The notes under the pieces are model-generated. The model searched no databases. It saw nothing but the letters and a program-made list of their open reading frames with translations, and was not told the DNA's origin. A program made the position numbers and the translations under genes. Below, in pieces: positions 1-6,325 of a DNA stretch of 64,000 nt. Source of the stretch: an uncultured Candidatus Peribacteria bacterium (GTDB lineage Bacteria; Patescibacteriota; Gracilibacteria; CAIRYL01; GCA-016699755); assembly GCA_964558715.1 (NCBI GenBank), contig CAZLFD010000004.1:1257-65256 (forward strand). Reading direction: 5' to 3'. Positions within the stretch are counted from its first letter, which is position 1, and every line of letters starts with the position of its first letter.

Positions 1-834
1 CAGCAATATGCAGAGAGTTTTCGTCAGGCTCAGGAGATTGAGAGATTAAGAAAGAAGCTTAAAATCGCCCTCGAACAAGGCTTTTCCTTTTCTTCCGCTG
101 AGGATGTTGCCCTTATTTCTCGCAGTTTAGATCACGAAATTTCACGTGCACTATTTCCTTTTCGATACGTCAGATACGGTACCTCAATATTTGGTTCTGC
201 AAGATTGGACAAAAAAGATCCTGAATTTCGTGAAGTCACCAAAATTACATGCGGGATTGTCTCAGAATCTTTGGTGGATATATATACGGGCGGTGGCCCC
301 GGTATCATGGAAGCAGCAAACCAGGGCTTAAAAGATGGGGCTAAGATAAGAGAGGGTTGTAAAAAAAGGAGTCGCGCCAAAAACACAGGACTCTCTATTA
401 CCTTGCCCTTTGAAGAAAGTGCTAATGCTCACTTAGATATTCACGCACCACACTTGACATTTGGCACAAGGCTAAACGAATTTGCTGATAGAAGTAACTC
501 AACTGTCACGTGGGATGGTGGAGGAGGATCGGATTTAGAGAGAGCATTTTTATTTCAACTCAAACAGGTTGGGCATCTTGAAGCGGATTTTCCCTTAATT
601 CTTAAAAGACAGATGTGGGAAGCCATACAGGAACAAAAGATGCGAACGATGTATTTTCAGCGAGTAGCTAATGATCGTACCCCCTTGGTAAGTCCTAAAG
701 ATGGAGAACTAGTCATGTTTGCTGATCATCCGGATGACGCTATTCAATATATTCTGAATCATTATAATGAGTGGAAAACTAGAGTTTGGAACAAACTTGA
801 TACAGAATCTCAAGAGGCTATTCTGGAATCATAG
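1..834 (+). CDS. LOG/TIGR00730-family Rossmann-fold nucleotide-binding protein (5' end outside window)
   Basis: Frame 1 is open from nt 1 (...RYGTSIFGSARLDKKD...), so the TTG start listed at 205 is internal. Motifs 'FGSAR', 'YTGGGPGIMEAANQG' and 'DGGGGSDLE' fit the LOG/PpnN-type signature. Confidence 0.65.
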   Translation, partial: QQYAESFRQAQEIERLRKKLKIALEQGFSFSSAEDVALISRSLDHEISRALFPFRYVRYGTSIFGSARLDKKDPEFREVTKITCGIVSESLVDIYTGGGPGIMEAANQGLKDGAKIREGCKKRSRAKNTGLSITLPFEESANAHLDIHAPHLTFGTRLNEFADRSNSTVTWDGGGGSDLERAFLFQLKQVGHLEADFPLILKRQMWEAIQEQKMRTMYFQRVANDRTPLVSPKDGELVMFADHPDDAIQYILNHYNEWKTRVWNKLDTESQEAILES

Positions 835-954
835 TAAAACTGGCTCTCCTTAATGTTGGATGTTCGAACTGCCTTAATCACCAAGAATAGGTGATGCATA
901 AAAATAAAAACAAATTGACTAAAAAAATATTTAATTCAAGATGGTTACGATTTT

Positions 955-3123
955 TTGACCCGAGTGAAGGAGCGTCATAAAATAAGTATGTGCAATAAAC
1001 ATGCAATTAATATGGGTGGCGAGTTCCTTTCCACGGAGTATAAAAATGCTCATGGAAAATTACGGTGGAAATGCCATCTCGGACACGAATGGGAGCAAGA
1101 CTGGCATCATGTGAAAAACAGGGGGCAGTGGTGCCCCCACCCCGATTGTTGCCGATCATCAAAAAAATACGATATCGAATTTTGCCGAGACCTAGCATCA
1201 AAGAGTGACGGAAGATGCCTCTCCAACGAGTACAAGGGGATATTTGAGAATCTGGATTGGGAGTGCTCGCAAGGGCACCTGTTTGAGAGACCTCTAAAAG
1301 TGATAAAAAAAGGAAAATGGTGCCCAGAGTGTGAGAGTGAAGACCGTGGCAAATTAATGCGGGTAACTAAAACCAGAGAGCTTCAAGAGTTAGTAGCACC
1401 GAAAGGTGGTACACTCTTAACACCATTTGAAGACTGGCGGACAAAGTTGTTGTGGCAGTGCTCTGAGGGTCATAGGTGGAAAGCCAGAGCTATCCAGATC
1501 AGAAGCGGCGCATGGTGTAGAACGTGTGCGCGTACAAGAACCTCCAAAAGCATGTTATCGCCGATTGCGGATGTCGAACGGCTTGCTGAACTGAGAGGCG
1601 GTAGTTGTACGGGTTACGATTTCGAAAGGAAAAAATATACTTTCAAATGCGCATTAGGACATCATTGGGCTGCGTCATTAAGCCATATTAAGTATGGAAA
1701 ATGGTGCCCTGATTGTGCTAGATTGGGATTGGGTGAGCGTCTTTGTCGAATATATTTTCAGGAAATTTTTGGTAAAAAATTCCCTAAGATAAGACCAAAA
1801 TGGCTCAGGGGTGCAAAAGGCCTACCTCTAGAGCTTGATGGATATTGCGCGTCACTTAATCTTGCTTTTGAGCATCAGGGAAAACATCACGATAAGCAAG
1901 ACGACTTTTTTCATTCTAAGGAAGCAGATTATCAGCAACGTCTTATTTATGATGAAACCAAGAGGAGAATATGCCGTGAGCGTGGAATCGTCCTGATTGA
2001 GATTCATCAGGTTACGACAAAATTACCGATTGATAAGCTGGCGGAGGAGATTTTCAAGAAATGTACCGAGGCAGGAATCGCCATGCCGCCCATTGACCCC
2101 ATTACTATTAAGCCGGATCTCGGGCCCGCATATTCGCCAGTGAATTTAGAATACTTCAATCAGATTAAAGAAATTGCTAGGCAGAAAGATGGTGTTTGTA
2201 CATCAACGGAATATGGGGGATGTTTATATAAACTCGATTTCCTCTGTGCTAATGGTCATAATTTCCAGGCAACTCCAAGCAGTATTCAGCAGGGCAAGTG
2301 GTGCCCCGTGTGTGCTCGGATCGAACGCAAAACCCAGCATCAACAGCTACAATATGAGTTCTACCAAGCATTGACAGTTGCAAATAGTGGGAGAATACTT
2401 ACTCCAGCAGCTGAATATATCAATGCTCAGAGCAAGGTCGAGTGGGAATGTTCCGAAGGTCATCGATGGGAGGCAACGCCGAATGCCATACAACAGGGGC
2501 AATGGTGTCGAATATGCGGCCATAAGAAGCGTTGGGCTGGTCGCAAGACCACGATCGAGGAAATGCACCAGTTGGCTATTTCAAGGGGTGGCAAGTGCCT
2601 GTCAAGCGAATATACAGATTCTCATACAAGGCTGCGATGGAGTTGCTCCGAGGGGCATGAGTGGGAGGCTATACCTACTAGTGTAAAACGAGGGAGTTGG
2701 TGCAAGCGCTGTGCGTGTCGAAAGATTAATGAGCCGAAAAAACCTCTGATTGATACGATTAGAAAAATTGCTAAAAGCAAGGGTGGTAAACTTTTGTCTC
2801 AGAACTACCTCAACGCCAGTAAAAAGCTGAAATGGCAGTGTAAAGCAGGTCACCAATGGGAAGCTTCGTGGAATCAGATCCAACAGGGACGATGGTGCCC
2901 AAAGTGTGCTGCCATGCGTAGAAACGACTGGAAACGGCTAACAATAGAACAAATGCGCGAATTGGCAGAAGAAAGGGGTGGCAAATGTCTATCGAATAAG
3001 TATGTCGATGCCAGAACTAAACTCAGCTGGCGATGTTCAAAAGCGCATAAATGGTTGGCTACCCCCGATCATATTAAAAGGGGGCAGTGGTGTAAATTGT
3101 GCAAGAAGCGCAAAAGGGGATAG
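955..3123 (+). CDS. Multi-zinc-ribbon repeat protein (9 treble-clef-like repeats) with central PD-(D/E)XK-like nuclease core
   Basis: Nine copies of the pattern W-x-C-x2-GH-x-W/F-x(9-10)-G-x-WC-x2-C (e.g. 'RWKCHLGHEWEQDWHHVKNRGQWCPHPDC', 'KWQCKAGHQWEASWNQIQQGRWCPKCA'). Four lie before and five after a non-repeat segment 'LELDGYCASLNLAFEHQGKHH...GIVLIEI' that resembles a D...E-x-Q/K restriction-endonuclease-fold motif. An in-frame ATG at 988 is an alternative start. Confidence 0.7.
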   Translation: MTRVKERHKISMCNKHAINMGGEFLSTEYKNAHGKLRWKCHLGHEWEQDWHHVKNRGQWCPHPDCCRSSKKYDIEFCRDLASKSDGRCLSNEYKGIFENLDWECSQGHLFERPLKVIKKGKWCPECESEDRGKLMRVTKTRELQELVAPKGGTLLTPFEDWRTKLLWQCSEGHRWKARAIQIRSGAWCRTCARTRTSKSMLSPIADVERLAELRGGSCTGYDFERKKYTFKCALGHHWAASLSHIKYGKWCPDCARLGLGERLCRIYFQEIFGKKFPKIRPKWLRGAKGLPLELDGYCASLNLAFEHQGKHHDKQDDFFHSKEADYQQRLIYDETKRRICRERGIVLIEIHQVTTKLPIDKLAEEIFKKCTEAGIAMPPIDPITIKPDLGPAYSPVNLEYFNQIKEIARQKDGVCTSTEYGGCLYKLDFLCANGHNFQATPSSIQQGKWCPVCARIERKTQHQQLQYEFYQALTVANSGRILTPAAEYINAQSKVEWECSEGHRWEATPNAIQQGQWCRICGHKKRWAGRKTTIEEMHQLAISRGGKCLSSEYTDSHTRLRWSCSEGHEWEAIPTSVKRGSWCKRCACRKINEPKKPLIDTIRKIAKSKGGKLLSQNYLNASKKLKWQCKAGHQWEASWNQIQQGRWCPKCAAMRRNDWKRLTIEQMRELAEERGGKCLSNKYVDARTKLSWRCSKAHKWLATPDHIKRGQWCKLCKKRKRG

Positions 3124-3148
3124 GGATTTTTTCTTTTTTTAATAGGCG

Positions 3149-3811
3149 ATGTCAATCGAGGCCATGCAGGATTTGAAGCTCCTGCAATTATTGCATCAGT
3201 ACAGAGGAGGATTCGATTCGGGTAGAACTGTGTATCATCCGCTGACCGAGCGCTGTATGAATACGCTTACCGAGTACTACGGCAGCGCGTATGGGGGGCT
3301 CCTTCTCTACCTGCAGGCAAAGAATGAGTGGCTTAACGTCTTTTCCGAAACACCCGATAACAGCGACCGAATCCCAAAATATAAAATGATAGCAGCTTGT
3401 ATCGGGATTTATGCCAGTTTGCGGATTTGCTTGGCAGTCGCTAGTGAGTTGAGCAACATTACTATTGCGGGCGGGAGGCTCAGTGCTGAAGCGTGCAAGA
3501 GTTTGATGCTTTTACTCGATAGTAATCAAGAGTTTGTCCGTGGATTTATAGCGAAAAGGGATAAGCTGACTGCTCATCCGATTACTCAAGATAGAAAGGA
3601 ACTGCTTGATGCCCCCAGTTCGATTAGTGATTCAGAGATTTGTTTTTATATTTTCTCGATTGACCCTGATTCAAATGAAGCAGTTGAAGAGCTAAAAATC
3701 AAGCCATATGAGGATTTTAAGGCCATTTTCCAATATTTGGAATCATTGACTCCTTTCATAGCGATGCATCTCACAAATGGTGAAAACCCTTATAAGGAGC
3801 AACTCTCCTGA
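3149..3811 (+). CDS. Hypothetical protein with HEPN-like Rx5H motif
   Basis: 220-aa ORF 25 nt downstream of the zinc-ribbon gene. 'AKRDKLTAHP' matches the R-[ND]-x3-A-H form of the HEPN Rx4-6H motif. No other recognisable domain. Confidence 0.55.
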   Translation: MSIEAMQDLKLLQLLHQYRGGFDSGRTVYHPLTERCMNTLTEYYGSAYGGLLLYLQAKNEWLNVFSETPDNSDRIPKYKMIAACIGIYASLRICLAVASELSNITIAGGRLSAEACKSLMLLLDSNQEFVRGFIAKRDKLTAHPITQDRKELLDAPSSISDSEICFYIFSIDPDSNEAVEELKIKPYEDFKAIFQYLESLTPFIAMHLTNGENPYKEQLS

Positions 3812-3818
3812 GTTGCTC
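3797..3818 (+). terminator. Perfect 9-bp stem-loop spanning the stop codon of the 220-aa gene
   Basis: GAGCAACTC-tcct-GAGTTGCTC. The downstream tract is only moderately T-rich (tatacgtttctt). It lies between convergent transcription units (220-aa gene and tRNA-Gln). Confidence 0.4.
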
Positions 3819-3874
3819 TATACGTTTCTTGCTCAACTCAAAATGTCAGAGAAAAGAATGGCACAACAAAAAAC

Positions 3875-3949
3875 TGGCTCGGGAGGTAGGATTCGAACCT
3901 ACGAATGACGGATTCAGAGTCCGTTGCCTTACCACTTGGCGACTCCCGA
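3875..3949 (-). tRNA. tRNA-Gln (anticodon CUG), CCA encoded
   Basis: The reverse complement folds as a cloverleaf: acceptor TCGGGAG/CTCCCGA, anticodon stem ACGGA/TCCGT with loop CT-CTG-AA, T-arm GTAGG-TTCGAAT-CCTAC, discriminator G, then CCA. Confidence 0.9.
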
Positions 3950-4046
3950 TTACACAAATAATACCCCTGCATTGTGCCAAAAATAATCAGGTTTTTCAAT
4001 TGGTTTTCCTCTCTACGAATTACGAGTGTATCGGCACTGCCATCAC

Positions 4047-4718
4047 TCATATTTCTGCATCTTCCTCGATTGCAAACTCTACGTTTGTAGCCTCTTCTAT
4101 TCCTATGTCATCACCGGTTTGCAGTTTGTGTTTACCAACACGCAGCTTGCCGCTGATGACAAAAACATACACGCTACTCTTCTCTACATCTTCCCAGTCA
4201 TAACGCCGTGACTGAAGAGCACTAAAATCACCGCGAGTGAACCAGGCATCCTGAAAAATCTTGACCACGTCTTCTGTGCTCCAATCTGGGGCAACGATGC
4301 GTTGATATTTGTTTCTCTGCTTTGCCGGAGCAAGTTTTTTTGGCTGTACGCCAGAGTGGTTTGGGGCGTGCGTGTTTGCACCCAGATCTTTCAAACCTCA
4401 CTGGTTCCATTTCAGAATGCGTAATGCCCGTACCGGCGCTGCCTGCATGTCGTTTGGTTTGATGATCGCCACGTTTCCCATACTGTCTTCGTGCTTAAGC
4501 GAGCCAGATTTAAGAATGGAAATGATCTCCATATCGTTATGCTGATGGCGGCCAAGGCCCTTTGCCGGTGCGACAAAATCATCATTGATCACAGGCAGCG
4601 CGCCAAATTCCATCCGTTCGGGATTAAAATAGTCGGCAAATGAAAAAGTCTGGCGGCTTACAAGCCAGCATTGGTCGACAAGGCCGCACGAATCGGTAGC
4701 ATGGAAGATTACTTTCAT
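4047..4718 (-). pseudogene. Pirin-family (YhhW-like cupin) gene disrupted by frameshifts
   Basis: The N-terminal ORF 4398-4718 carries pirin motifs ('FSFADYFNPERMEFGALPVINDD', 'GLGRHQHNDMEIISILKSGSLKHEDSMGN') but ends in 'MQAAPVRALRILKWNQ*'. The expected 'GTGITHSEM' motif is readable only in another frame (4402-4434). The C-terminal part continues in a third frame (ORF 4047-4394, 'VQPKKLAP...YQ'). Confidence 0.6.
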
Positions 4719-4773
4719 GTTTCGTGAAAAGGCACCCCTGTTTTACCGGAAGGCTTTGTAATGAAACATAGAA

Positions 4774-5592
4774 TTATTTTCGTGCTCCAAGTAAGACCCG
4801 TTGCAACAGAGCTATTAGAATCAGAATCCCGATTAAACTTAGTACAATCGCACTACTACTCGGCACATCGATTGCAAACGAGAGAAAAAGCCCGACTGCC
4901 ACGCCGATAATATTGCATGCGATACTCCAGGCAACCGATTGTGCAAACGTGCGACTGAGGTTTTGCGCGGCCAAAACCGGAATCACGAGAAGTGCGCCGA
5001 CCAGTAATCCACCGATGATCTTGAGCGAAACGGCAACGAGGATACCGACCAGCATCATAAACATCGCTTCGATCAGATGATGGTCGGCAAAGCGGCTACC
5101 CGCGAACTCTGGGTCGATCACGCTTGTACGCAGGCGGTTCCAAACAAGCAGCAACGTCAGCAGAATCAGTGCGCAGATAATCAGAATCAGGCGTACTTCG
5201 AGCGGAGTCACAGTAAGAATGCTGCCGAAAAGATAGGTCTCGAGCGAGATGGGATTATTTTTCGCAAGATGGCTGAAGAGGAGCGCGAGCGCGAGACTGC
5301 CAGTCATGATCAGCATGGCAGCAGCCTCTGGCGGAATTTTGCCGCGGCGACGGAATTGCCACAGCAAAAGCGCACTGACAATGGCGATGACTCCGCCACT
5401 GAGCGGTGGGGCAATGTTCAGAAAAATTCCCACTCCAACACCGGCGAGAGCAGAGTGCGCAAGCATGTCTGAGACAATGGCATTGCGCGAAGCGACGACA
5501 AAATTCCCAAGAATCCCCGCGACAACGCCGACAACCGTGCCCACCAGAAGCGCGCGTAAAAGAAAATCGTGTGAGAAGAAATCAATGATCAT
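4774..5592 (-). CDS. znuB: Metal (zinc) ABC transporter permease, ABC-3 family
   Basis: 272-aa polytopic membrane protein. The N-terminus 'FLLRALLVGTVVGVVAGILGNFVV' is typical of ZnuB/MntB-type permeases. It overlaps the ATPase gene by 11 nt. Confidence 0.75.
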   Translation of the reverse strand: MIIDFFSHDFLLRALLVGTVVGVVAGILGNFVVASRNAIVSDMLAHSALAGVGVGIFLNIAPPLSGGVIAIVSALLLWQFRRRGKIPPEAAAMLIMTGSLALALLFSHLAKNNPISLETYLFGSILTVTPLEVRLILIICALILLTLLLVWNRLRTSVIDPEFAGSRFADHHLIEAMFMMLVGILVAVSLKIIGGLLVGALLVIPVLAAQNLSRTFAQSVAWSIACNIIGVAVGLFLSFAIDVPSSSAIVLSLIGILILIALLQRVLLGARK

Positions 5593-6325
5593 CGGGATGA
5601 CAGTGATGGTGAATGGGAGTCAGGTTTTTTCCGGCTTTGATCATATGCTTTGTATCGATCTCGCCTTTGGCGAAATGCACCGGATGGCAGCCGACATGCA
5701 AGGTTTTATCTAAACAGAGGATGCGCTCGCATTTACTGATCACCGCATCCACCTCGTGCGATACAAAGAGAATGGTGATTCCTTTTTTTTGGTTCAATTC
5801 GGCAAGCAGGTCGTAAATGCGGATTTTTGTCGCGTAGTCCACACCGCTAAACGGCTCGTCAAAAAGCAACAACTCCGGTCTGCCCACGAGTGCCCGCGCG
5901 ATGATGACCCGCTGTTTTTGCCCGCCAGAGAGCGAGGCAAAACTCTTGCTGAGCCATGACTCGTCAAAACCAACGGCTTGCAGCGCTTGTAGGCTGGCTT
6001 GCCTTTCTTTTTCTTGCTGCCAAAAGCCCAGTCGACTAAAGCCCATTTGTAATACTTCATCCACCGAGATCGGCACCGACGGTGCCAGTAAAAAATGTTG
6101 CGGCACATATCCGATGCGAGATTTTTTTGGCGCTGTGATCTTTCCTTTGCTAACCGAGATCAGCCCGAGTATCGCTTTGAGTAGTGTTGATTTTCCCGCT
6201 CCGTTCGGGCCGATCAAGCCGACATATTCCCCCTGTTTCAGATCGAAATCGATATGGCGCAATGCTTCCTTTTCACCATAGCACACGGCGAGTCCGCGGA
6301 CAGAGAGGAGCGTGGTATCTGCCAT
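5582..6325 (-). CDS. znuC: Metal (zinc) ABC transporter ATP-binding protein with His/Cys-rich C-terminal tail
   Basis: Walker A 'GPNGAGKST', signature 'LSGGQKQR', Walker B 'LLLFDEP'. The C-terminus is '...CHPVHF...PIHHHCHPDDH'. Confidence 0.8.
   Translation of the reverse strand: MADTTLLSVRGLAVCYGEKEALRHIDFDLKQGEYVGLIGPNGAGKSTLLKAILGLISVSKGKITAPKKSRIGYVPQHFLLAPSVPISVDEVLQMGFSRLGFWQQEKERQASLQALQAVGFDESWLSKSFASLSGGQKQRVIIARALVGRPELLLFDEPFSGVDYATKIRIYDLLAELNQKKGITILFVSHEVDAVISKCERILCLDKTLHVGCHPVHFAKGEIDTKHMIKAGKNLTPIHHHCHPDDH

What the first reader, a model, noticed from the sequence alone, without database searches (positions are those of the whole stretch)
955..3123. 722-aa protein: nine treble-clef zinc-ribbon repeats flanking a PD-(D/E)XK-like core
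The sequence shows nine units of W-x-C-x2-GH-x-W...G-x-WC-x2-C. Each is usually preceded by a GG-x-(L/C)LS-x-(E/N)Y segment. Four units lie N-terminal and five C-terminal to a ~130-aa unique region containing 'LELDGY...LAFEHQGKHH...GIVLIEI'. That region reads like the D / E-x-Q(K) catalytic signature of restriction-endonuclease-fold nucleases. Single or double copies of this ribbon (DUF4379-like) attached to endonuclease-like domains are known from phage, giant-virus and bacterial accessory genes. A 9-fold array surrounding the core is unusual and suggests a modular nucleic-acid-recognition scaffold.
Basis: partly seen in the sequence, partly recalled or inferred. Interest (0 to 1): 0.6.

Follow-up and report, generated by a model that had tools for sequence, protein, structure and literature searches.

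The report
Zinc-module-array Vsr-type homing-like endonuclease
This gene encodes a probable site-specific DNA-cutting enzyme, with a Vsr/DUF559-type nuclease core between nine small zinc-binding DNA-reading modules. It is an ordinary member of a very large, widely scattered family of homing-endonuclease-like genes that has been described by sequence analysis but never tested in the lab.

Summary
ORF 955-3123 (+) encodes 703-722 aa, depending on the start codon. It has nine ~63-aa modules, four N-terminal and five C-terminal to a unique core. Each module has an intact C-x3-H...C-x2-C zinc site (Pfam DUF4379, 84.9 bits, 8 stretches; CapR domain, 55.7 bits).

The core (residues ~259-394) is a nuclease of the Vsr/DUF559 branch of the restriction-endonuclease fold.
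- E261, D295, E306, H312 and D333 are invariant in 27 homologues.
- A profile-profile comparison aligns them with the DUF559 catalytic residues (84-86% probability, E about 5e-6; reversed controls 0.1-0.2%).
- The same DUF559 profile finds I-Bth0305I (PDB 3R3P).

The claim that a 9-fold array around the core is unusual is wrong. More than 1,000 full-length homologues exist, and 25,953 protein clusters carry the core. There are 415 loci in bacteria and archaea and 248 in viral contigs, with 0-9 modules before the core and 0-6 after it.

The family was described in silico in 2025 as CapR-like modules plus an EDxHD/Vsr-like homing nuclease. Here the gene is free-standing, single-copy, absent from 40 relatives, and lies at a synteny break beside tRNA-Gln.

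Verdict: new member of a known kind. Its activity and target remain untested.

The parts
955..3123 (+). Whole gene: zinc-module-array Vsr/DUF559-type endonuclease (722 aa from TTG 955; alternative ATG starts at 988 and 1012 give 711 or 703 aa)
   Evidence: phrog_559 E=4.9e-96 and phrog_681 E=2.1e-68.
964..1728 (+). N-terminal array of four zinc modules: unit 1 at 964-1164, unit 2 at 1156-1344, unit 3 at 1351-1539, unit 4 at 1540-1728. Zinc ligands C40/H44/C60/C65-66, C104/H108/C123/C126, C169/H173/C188/C191, C232/H236/C251/C254.
   Evidence: The four ligands are 100% invariant in 301 units from 30 homologues. AF2 gives helix, strand, beta-hairpin, short helix for each unit.
1729..2136 (+). Nuclease core (residues 259-394): alpha1, three beta strands, alpha2, a beta strand and alpha3, followed by a helical extension. 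Candidate catalytic codons: E261 1735-1737, D295 1837-1839, E306 1870-1872, Q308 1876-1878, H312 1888-1890, D333 1951-1953, K336 1960-1962.
   Evidence: Conservation. AF2 pLDDT 91.9. hhalign to DUF559 at 84-86% probability, E about 5e-6. Foldseek matches to viral 'restriction endonuclease', 'DUF559' and 'homing endonuclease' models.
2137..3114 (+). C-terminal array of five zinc modules: unit 5 at 2137-2325, unit 6 at 2341-2529, unit 7 at 2536-2730, unit 8 at 2731-2919, unit 9 at 2926-3114.
3149..3811 (+). Neighbouring 220-aa ORF, 25 nt downstream. Context only; not shown to belong to the nuclease.
   Evidence: It has no family hit. The only match among 5.8 billion proteins is itself. No homologue lies in 80 loci that carry the nuclease.
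3875..3949 (-). tRNA-Gln(CUG). Its 3' end faces the nuclease and ORF220. Context only.

Best explanation
The gene encodes a free-standing, homing-endonuclease-type, site-specific DNA endonuclease. It belongs to the family built from CapR/DUF4379-like zinc modules plus an EDxHD/Vsr/DUF559-like nuclease.

Proposed mechanism:
1. Each ~63-aa module folds around one Zn2+ held by C-x3-H on a beta-hairpin knuckle and C-x2-C at a helix start. The ligand pattern is shown; the fold is an AF2 prediction; zinc binding is inferred.
2. The four N-terminal and five C-terminal modules bind DNA on either side of the cut site, giving a long asymmetric target. This is inferred from CapR, where the equivalent cysteines are needed for DNA binding.
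3. The central domain cleaves by the Vsr-type mechanism. D295 and D333, probably with E306, hold Mg2+; H312 acts as general base; E261 on helix 1 assists. This is inferred from residue-by-residue alignment with DUF559 and from published Vsr and I-Bth0305I work.
4. The break or nick provokes recombinational repair that can copy the gene into alleles lacking it. This is inferred from relatives inside phage introns and is not shown here.

In this genome the gene looks intact and catalytically competent. It is a lineage-specific accessory gene at a synteny break next to tRNA-Gln.

The confidence of 0.72 is for the site-specific nuclease of this family. Family membership alone I put at about 0.9, and active homing in this genome at about 0.5.
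For: - Family hits: Pfam DUF4379 and CapR above their cut-offs; phrog_559 'HNH endonuclease' E=4.9e-96 and phrog_681 'endonuclease' E=2.1e-68.
- Core conservation: invariant E261, D295, E306, G309, H312 and D333; near-invariant R265 and K336, across 27 homologues.
- Core versus a DUF559 alignment by hhalign: 86.3% (E 4.7e-6) and 84.1% (E 7.5e-6). It aligns ELDGY with IVDFV, AFEHQGxQH with IExDGGQH, and D..K with D..R. Reversed-sequence controls give 0.1-0.2%. The Vsr versus DUF559 positive control gives 92%.
- The same DUF559 profile hits PDB 3HRL (2.6e-42) and 3R3P, the I-Bth0305I nuclease domain (1.7e-5).
- 9 of 27 core sequences hit Pfam DUF2726 (best E 0.0012); no other family recurs.
- The AF2 core model is confident (pLDDT 91.9). 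Foldseek against viral models gives 65 hits at E<=1e-3, named 'restriction endonuclease', 'zinc-ribbon domain-containing', 'DUF559' or 'homing endonuclease'.
- Bacillus phage 0305phi8-36 ORF194, annotated 'homing nuclease', is 34% identical to the core.
[quoted passage not shown] CapR's cysteines are required for DNA binding (PMC8096241). Catalytic roles in Vsr and I-Bth0305I are given in PMC3239194.
- Selfish-gene signature: single copy here and absent from 40 relatives. There are 415 loci across bacterial and archaeal phyla and 248 in viral contigs, with several copies in some genomes. No conserved neighbour gene occurs in 80 loci. No intron RNA surrounds the gene. Synteny with same-genus genomes starts only at znuB.
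Against: - No biochemical data exist for any member with this architecture.
- Foldseek of the core against solved structures gives nothing significant (best E 0.36). 3HRL, 3R3P and 1VSR are not among the 50 matches listed.
- The core profile finds no PDB sequence directly and does not align directly with Vsr. The link to Vsr/EDxHD goes through DUF559.
- There is no sign of recent mobility of this copy. The nearest homologue is only ~40-45% identical. GC and GC3 lie within 1 SD of the window's genes. No flanking repeats were found. No clean empty site could be reconstructed: the flanking LOG-like and pirin genes are adjacent in G007, but in a different relative orientation.
- Two near-invariant core positions differ here (Q311 to H, P351 to H). 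At least one homologue shares H at the first position.
Confidence: 0.72

Rival explanations
1. Domesticated or defensive nuclease. The host uses the protein to cut invading phage or plasmid DNA (restriction-like defence), possibly together with the downstream 220-aa ORF as a two-gene conflict islet next to tRNA-Gln.
For: - The gene is intact in a small (1.47 Mb), 97.7%-complete genome.
- Its composition resembles the host's.
- It is followed 25 nt later by an orphan ORF and then a tRNA gene.
- An earlier first-reader note (e1-3107391) proposed that the ORF is HEPN-like.
Against: - Neither protein has a credible PADLOC hit.
- ORF220 has no Pfam, PHROG or NCBIfam match and no homologue anywhere except itself.
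- ORF220 never accompanies the nuclease in 80 other loci, and no other neighbour is conserved either.
- No methyltransferase or other self-protection gene is adjacent.
Confidence: 0.12
2. Nuclease-dead DNA-binding regulator. As with CapR of the Vibrio PLE satellite, the zinc-module array has been kept as a sequence-specific repressor or architectural protein and the core no longer cuts.
For: CapR is a domesticated relative of homing-endonuclease DNA-binding modules and acts as a repressor (PMC8096241). The CapR Pfam model matches four stretches of this protein.
Against: Every residue that aligns with the DUF559/Vsr catalytic set (E261, D295, E306, H312, D333) is intact here and invariant in the family. 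CapR itself lacks a nuclease domain.
Confidence: 0.08
3. Housekeeping DNA-repair nickase. A Vsr-like enzyme that nicks at mismatches or lesions, with the zinc modules serving general DNA affinity.
For: The core is related, through DUF559, to Vsr mismatch endonucleases.
Against: - It is absent from all 40 relatives, including the same genus.
- Module number and module identity differ freely between homologues. Only 110 of 301 modules have their best match at the same array position.
- It is abundant in phages and giant viruses.
- It has no direct similarity to Vsr.
Confidence: 0.04

Closest known systems
[quoted passage not shown]
   Same: Same two building blocks: ~60-aa CapR/DUF4379-like zinc modules and a ~100-aa Vsr/EDxHD-like nuclease. 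That paper already notes thousands of unannotated relatives in UniProt. Both are assigned a function from sequence and predicted structure only.
   Different: The phage proteins have 3-5 modules followed by a C-terminal nuclease and sit inside self-splicing introns. This protein has the nuclease in the middle of a 4+5 array, is free-standing with no intron RNA, and lies in a small bacterial chromosome. I did not align this protein directly with those four phage proteins.
I-Bth0305I, prototype of the EDxHD homing endonuclease family (PDB 3R3P; PMC3239194)
   Same: Vsr-like catalytic set of E, D, (N/H/Q), H, D in the same order and with similar spacing: E170/D196/N208/H213/D222 there, E261/D295/Q308/H312/D333 here. 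Both are bipartite, with DNA-binding modules plus a nuclease.
   Different: I-Bth0305I uses two NUMOD/helix-turn-helix type motifs, not zinc modules. It is 266 aa and intron-encoded. Similarity to this core is only indirect, through DUF559.
DUF559 (PF04480; PDB 3HRL) and Vsr (PF03852) endonuclease-like domains
   Same: The profile-profile alignment covers the catalytic strands and helix: D, E-x-(D/Q)-G-x-Q-H and D-x-x-(R/K).
   Different: This core carries a ~20-residue insert between H312 and D333 and a C-terminal helical extension. It does not reach the Pfam thresholds for either family. Q/H/N replaces the DUF559 Asp of E-x-D-G.
CapR of the Vibrio cholerae PLE satellite (PF21817; PMC8096241)
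   Same: Homologous zinc module. In CapR the four cysteines are experimentally required for sequence-specific DNA binding.
   Different: CapR is a single-module repressor with no nuclease. Here nine modules flank an apparently active nuclease, and the ligand set is CHCC, not CCCC.
Giant-virus 'restriction endonuclease' proteins with DUF4379 repeats (for example Lausannevirus / Insectomime ISTM_159, PMC5513546; BFVD models from Klosneuvirus, Pithovirus and Marseillevirus)
   Same: Same core fold model (Foldseek E down to 6e-12, TM up to 0.77, 27-39% identity) combined with DUF4379 modules (4 modules in ISTM_159).
   Different: These have eukaryotic-virus hosts, mostly fewer modules, and names that are annotations without tests.

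Membership tests
DUF4379 (PF14311) treble-clef-type zinc module | Match to the Pfam model above the gathering score | tested here: met
   84.9 bits against a cut-off of 24.5, E=4.4e-24, 8 stretches.
DUF4379 (PF14311) treble-clef-type zinc module | Four zinc ligands in a knuckle plus helix-start arrangement | tested here: met
   C-x3-H...C-x2-C is present in all nine units. C37, H41, C56 and C59 are 100% invariant in 301 units. AF2 places the first pair on a beta-hairpin and the second before a helix.
DUF4379 (PF14311) treble-clef-type zinc module | Tetrahedral zinc geometry and actual metal binding | not testable with these tools
It needs metal analysis or a solved structure.
CapR homology domain (PF21817) | Match to the Pfam model above the gathering score | tested here: met
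   55.7 bits against a cut-off of 24.2, 4 stretches.
EDxHD / Vsr-like homing endonucleases | Composite catalytic motif E, D, x, H, D conserved | tested here: met
   E261, D295, (Q308), H312 and D333 are invariant in 27 homologues. They align with DUF559 D51, E62, D64, H68 and D75.
EDxHD / Vsr-like homing endonucleases | Detectable homology to Vsr or I-Bth0305I | tested here: inconclusive
   The direct tests fail: the core profile against PDB sequences finds nothing, and core versus Vsr by hhalign gives 0.1%. The indirect chain holds: core to DUF559 at 84-86%, E about 5e-6; DUF559 to 3R3P at E=1.7e-5; DUF559 to Vsr at 92%.
EDxHD / Vsr-like homing endonucleases | Vsr-like (restriction-endonuclease) fold | tested here: inconclusive
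   The AF2 element order alpha-beta-beta-beta-alpha-beta fits. Viral models named restriction endonuclease or DUF559 match strongly. Foldseek against solved structures has no significant hit, with only weak matches to PD-(D/E)XK domains of R2, TnsA, Lassa L and TseT.
EDxHD / Vsr-like homing endonucleases | Sequence-specific DNA cleavage and homing into alleles lacking the gene | not testable with these tools
   This needs biochemistry.
Canonical PD-(D/E)XK nucleases | D ... (D/E)-x-K motif with a catalytic lysine on the third strand | tested here: not met
   The position is E306-H307-Q308 here, and E-x-(Q/H/N) across the family. This is the Vsr-type variant with a His, not the canonical Lys. 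Membership is at superfamily level only.
Known anti-phage defence systems (PADLOC) | Match to any defence-system protein model | tested here: not met
   No hit for the nuclease. ORF220 has only E=0.019-0.044 chance-level GajB matches.
Intron- or intein-encoded homing endonuclease | Located inside a self-splicing intron or intein | tested here: not met
   No group I or group II intron model matches window 1-6000 at E<=1. The ORF stands alone between genes. It is therefore a free-standing type.

The most novel reading that the evidence does not exclude
The two-sided array may be a natural modular DNA-reading scaffold, comparable in principle to zinc-finger or TALE arrays. Each 63-aa module has a rigid scaffold: about 20 positions are over 85% conserved, including the four invariant zinc ligands. 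About 16 positions are hypervariable and cluster around the hairpin knuckle and the short helix. Module number (0-9 before the core, 0-6 after it) and module order vary freely between homologues. If each module reads a short block of bases, the family would be a huge natural library of long-target nucleases with a nuclease placed between two readable half-sites, and it might be reprogrammable.
Probability: 0.25. Interest if true: 0.7.

Novelty: new member of a known kind. Interest (0 to 1): 0.27.

Why it matters
For this genome the gene is an ordinary selfish or accessory gene. It marks a variable spot next to tRNA-Gln in a very small (1.47 Mb) genome.

More generally, this family is one of the largest groups of nuclease genes with no tested member: about 26,000 clusters at 50% identity, spread through bacteria, archaea, phages and giant viruses. 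It is still annotated only as 'zinc-ribbon domain-containing protein' or mislabelled 'HNH endonuclease'.

Correct annotation would help genome and virome annotation. A biochemical test of one member would show whether the module arrays read DNA in a modular way.

Tried and rejected
1. Direct sequence search of the whole protein and of the core profile against PDB sequences: no hits, or chance RadA hits only.
2. Foldseek of the core model against PDB: nothing below E 0.36. Foldseek of the full-length model against PDB: only meaningless matches. The fold assignment therefore rests on profile comparison and on viral predicted models.
3. Direct hhalign of the core against Vsr: no match.
4. NCBIfam and PADLOC: no useful hits.
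5. Conserved-partner hypothesis: all-against-all clustering of ORFs in 80 loci found no recurrent neighbour, apart from a tyrosine recombinase in 6 loci. ORF220 was absent from all of them. I rejected the HEPN-pair or operon idea as unsupported.
6. Clean insertion site: the same-genus genomes G001 and G002 are collinear only from znuB onwards. G007 has the two flanking genes adjacent but differently oriented. No empty site could be reconstructed, and no flanking direct repeats or att-like copy of the tRNA end was found.
7. Intron context: no Rfam intron match.
8. Compositional foreignness: GC 45.8% and GC3 44.1% lie within 1 SD of the window's long ORFs, so there is no sign of recent import.
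9. Positional orthology of modules: the nine modules have no consistent positional counterparts in 29 homologues.
11. I tried to fetch I-Bth0305I from the phage record for a direct comparison. The request failed on the range limit, and I replaced it with the PDB search using the DUF559 profile.
Full report
**1. The observation**

The window has an open frame at 955-3123 on the + strand. From TTG 955 it gives 722 aa. In-frame ATGs at 988 and 1012 would give 711 and 703 aa, and the public gene call (P0002, 703 aa) uses 1012. An AGGAG lies at 969-973, 14 nt before ATG 988. The start is therefore uncertain by up to 19 residues, which does not affect the modules.

A pattern search finds nine units. 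Their first knuckle (W/F-x-C-x3-H) starts at residues 38, 102, 167 and 230, then 429, 497, 562, 627 and 692. Each unit has C-x3-H ... C-x2-C. Unit 1 has an atypical second knuckle (WCPHPDCC). Each unit is preceded by a helix and a GG-x-(C/L)LS-x-x-Y strand.

Pfam confirms this is not chance. DUF4379 ('probable treble clef zinc finger') scores E=4.4e-24 (84.9 bits, cut-off 24.5) in 8 stretches. The CapR homology domain scores 55.7 bits (cut-off 24.2) in 4 stretches. The nine units are only 33% identical to each other on average. At DNA level only the G-x-WCP-x-C stretch repeats. The array is therefore old and not a recent duplication.

**2. The array is typical, not unusual**

A search of 5.8 billion proteins found 1,025 homologues at E<=1e-3. 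The listed ones are 567-1,118 aa, 28-43% identical to this protein over most of its length, and carry the same Pfam domains. The few that have names are 'zinc-ribbon domain-containing protein' (Bacillus thuringiensis, Priestia megaterium, a Methanobacteriota archaeon).

A profile of the core alone finds 25,953 clusters (50% identity) at E<=1e-3 and 1,279 at E<=1e-30. In one-genome-per-species collections, 415 loci encode the core. They span many bacterial phyla and several archaeal ones (Thermoplasmata, Nano-, Pace-, Woese-, Aenigm- and Micrarchaeota, Methanosarcinales), plus a Cupriavidus plasmid.

In the 80 best loci, the modules before the core number 0-9 and those after it 0-6. The exact 4+5 layout recurs in L004 and L007. 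A further 248 viral contigs carry the core. Many are 100-450 kb (jumbo phages, giant-virus MAGs), and some hold two copies. PHROGs has two families for this architecture: phrog_559, named 'HNH endonuclease' (E=4.9e-96), and phrog_681, named 'endonuclease' (2.1e-68). I found no HNH motif, so the HNH label is probably a misannotation.

**3. The core**

I aligned the core of 27 homologues (A2). Invariant residues are E261, F276, E293, D295, G296, A304, F305, E306, G309, H312, D333, C340 and L347. Near-invariant residues are C264, R265, Q311 (H here), K336 and P351 (H here).

AF2 on this alignment gives a confident model (pLDDT 91.9, pTM 0.83). Its order is helix (E261), strands (D295; E306...), a long helix (D333, K336), a strand (VLIEI), then further helices.

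Sequence searches against PDB find nothing. Foldseek against PDB has no significant hit. The best weak matches are restriction-like endonuclease domains of R2 retrotransposons, plus TnsA, the Lassa L endonuclease and TseT, at E 0.36-2.8. I treat these as suggestive only.

Foldseek against predicted viral structures gives 65 hits at E<=1e-3, with TM up to 0.77 and 27-39% identity. They are giant-virus 'zinc-ribbon domain-containing' and 'restriction endonuclease' proteins, irido/ascovirus 'Uvr/REP helicase' (restriction-fold nuclease), a phage 'DUF559 domain-containing protein' and an Enterococcus phage 'homing endonuclease'. These names are annotations, not tests.

Scanning each of the 27 core sequences against Pfam, the only recurrent family is DUF2726 (9 of 27, best E 0.0012). 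From my own knowledge, DUF2726 sits in the PD-(D/E)XK clan.

For a direct test I collected 15 Vsr (PF03852) and 19 DUF559 (PF04480) sequences from genomes and ran profile-profile comparisons.
- Core versus DUF559: 86.3% probability, E=4.7e-6 over 83 columns. The session's own tool, on a 16-sequence alignment, gives 84.1%, E=7.5e-6.
- Reversed-sequence controls: 0.1-0.2%.
- Vsr versus DUF559, a known relationship: 92.3%.
- Core versus Vsr directly: no match.

The alignment puts (M)ELDGY on (Y)IVDFV, AFEHQGxQH on IExDGGQH, and D-x-x-K on D-x-x-R. D295, E306, Q308, H312 and D333 therefore correspond to the DUF559 invariant D51, E62, D64, H68 and D75.

The same DUF559 profile hits PDB 3HRL ('endonuclease-like protein', 2.6e-42) and 3R3P (1.7e-5). 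3R3P is the catalytic domain of I-Bth0305I, the prototype of the EDxHD homing endonucleases.

In Vsr and I-Bth0305I the corresponding residues have described roles (PMC3239194). These are the Mg2+-binding Asp (Vsr D51), the presumed general-base His (H69), a second Asp (D97) and a helix-1 Glu (E25). The EDxHD family also has an extra acidic residue at the Vsr F62 position, which fits E306 here.

So the core is a Vsr/DUF559-branch restriction-fold nuclease with a complete catalytic set. The canonical (D/E)-x-K lysine is not present (E306-H307-Q308).

**4. The modules**

The full-length AF2 model (pLDDT 81, pTM 0.40) behaves like beads on a string, with confidence dips at the linkers. It gives every unit the same order: helix, short strand, beta-hairpin carrying C-x3-H, short helix, then C-x2-C before the next helix.

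Across 301 units from 30 proteins the four ligands are 100% invariant. About 20 scaffold positions exceed 85% conservation (G19, C21, S23, Y26, L33, W35, G40, W43, G53, W55, P57 and others). About 16 positions are hypervariable (24, 25, 27, 29, 30, 34, 36, 38, 39, 42, 46, 48, 49, 52, 54, 58).

The nine modules here have no consistent positional counterparts in other family members. Overall, only 110 of 301 modules have their best match at the same array position. Each protein therefore appears to have its own module composition.

CapR is the founding member of PF21817. It binds a specific promoter, and mutating its four cysteines abolishes binding (PMC8096241). This is the only experimental evidence that bears on what the modules do.

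**5. Context**

- The window is C4:1257-65256 of a 1.47-Mb, 77-contig genome that is 97.7% complete.
- The gene is single-copy and absent from all 40 relatives searched, including two of the same genus.
- Gene order is: DEAD-box helicase (split), LOG/SLOG-like gene, nuclease, orphan ORF220, tRNA-Gln(CUG) on the minus strand, a broken pirin gene, then znuB-znuC-znuA-zur.
- Collinearity with the same-genus genomes G001 and G002 begins only at znuB. In G001, tRNA-Gln is followed by four polyamine-synthesis genes before znuB.
- In the same-family genome G007 the pirin and LOG-like genes are immediate neighbours about 100 bp apart, but co-oriented. The ~3.2 kb between them here is therefore lineage-specific, and the site has been rearranged. 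It is not a clean insertion.
- No intron RNA, flanking repeat or att-like tRNA fragment was found.
- GC (45.8%) and GC3 (44.1%) lie within one SD of the window's long ORFs.
- Across 80 other loci no neighbour gene is conserved. ORF220 has no homologue there or anywhere else.

**6. Interpretation**

The best reading is a free-standing, homing-endonuclease-type, site-specific nuclease. Two zinc-module arrays would bind DNA on either side of a Vsr-type active site.

What is shown here:
- the architecture and the ligand and catalytic-residue conservation;
- the DUF559 relationship;
- the sporadic, cross-domain and viral distribution;
- the lack of a conserved partner gene.

What is inferred: zinc and DNA binding, the catalytic mechanism, and homing.

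[quoted passage not shown] This protein differs in three ways: the nuclease is central, the array is longer and two-sided, and the gene is free-standing in a cellular chromosome. The family survey shows that this layout is also common.

[quoted passage not shown] Bacillus phage 0305phi8-36 ORF194, annotated 'homing nuclease', shares 34% identity with the core.

Rival readings are a defence nuclease paired with ORF220, a nuclease-dead regulator and a repair nickase. Each is weakened by specific results listed under the rivals.

**7. Verdict**

This is a new member of a known, in-silico-described kind. Interest is modest for this copy. The open question is whether the arrays read DNA modularly, and no member of the family has been tested.

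Earlier notes of this scan report the same family in many other genomes. They agree with this reading, but I do not count them as independent evidence.

Noticed in passing
window 4047-4718 (-): The pirin gene is broken into at least two frames (106-aa and 115-aa ORFs). The same-family genome G007 has an intact 239-aa pirin (L225 896-1615). This is either a pseudogene or an assembly frameshift.
   Followed up: partly
L094 (G000:C4) 39-935, just upstream of the window: A DEAD-box helicase is split into two adjacent ORFs (39-560 and 567-935, +). This is a second apparently disrupted gene within 5 kb of the nuclease.
   Followed up: no
window 3149-3811 (+): The 220-aa ORF 25 nt downstream of the nuclease is a complete orphan. 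It has no credible Pfam, NCBIfam, PHROG or PADLOC hit, and the only match among 5.8 billion proteins is itself.
   Followed up: partly
window 1-834 (+), continuing upstream to C4:1179: A 303-aa LOG/SLOG-like Rossmann protein has only weak hits to TIGR00730 and Lysine_decarbox. Its 53%-identical counterpart in G007 lies directly next to pirin. Same-genus genomes have only ~39% relatives.
   Followed up: partly
L051 and L067 (CAZWLZ010000001.1, 43,772 bp): Both ends of this 43.8-kb contig carry a copy of a family member with identical match statistics, in inverted orientation. This could be terminal inverted repeats of a linear element or an assembly artefact.
   Followed up: no
L012 4425-5267 and five other loci: A ~280-aa tyrosine-recombinase-like ORF is the only neighbour that recurs next to family members (6 of 80 loci). 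Some copies may therefore ride on integrative elements or cassettes.
   Followed up: no
P0042 (928 aa): This homologue has a long zinc-module array but lacks the central core. Instead it ends in a different nuclease-like domain (precomputed PF10881 DUF2726; motif LAFDF...IEYDGKQH). This suggests the nuclease domain can be exchanged on the same array scaffold.
   Followed up: no
L095 (G001:C7) 869-6031: In the same-genus genome G001, four polyamine-synthesis-like genes lie between tRNA-Gln and znuB: arginine decarboxylase, agmatinase, and carboxynorspermidine dehydrogenase and decarboxylase types. They are missing at this position in the window, so the tRNA-Gln/znu junction is a variable spot in the genus.
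   Followed up: no
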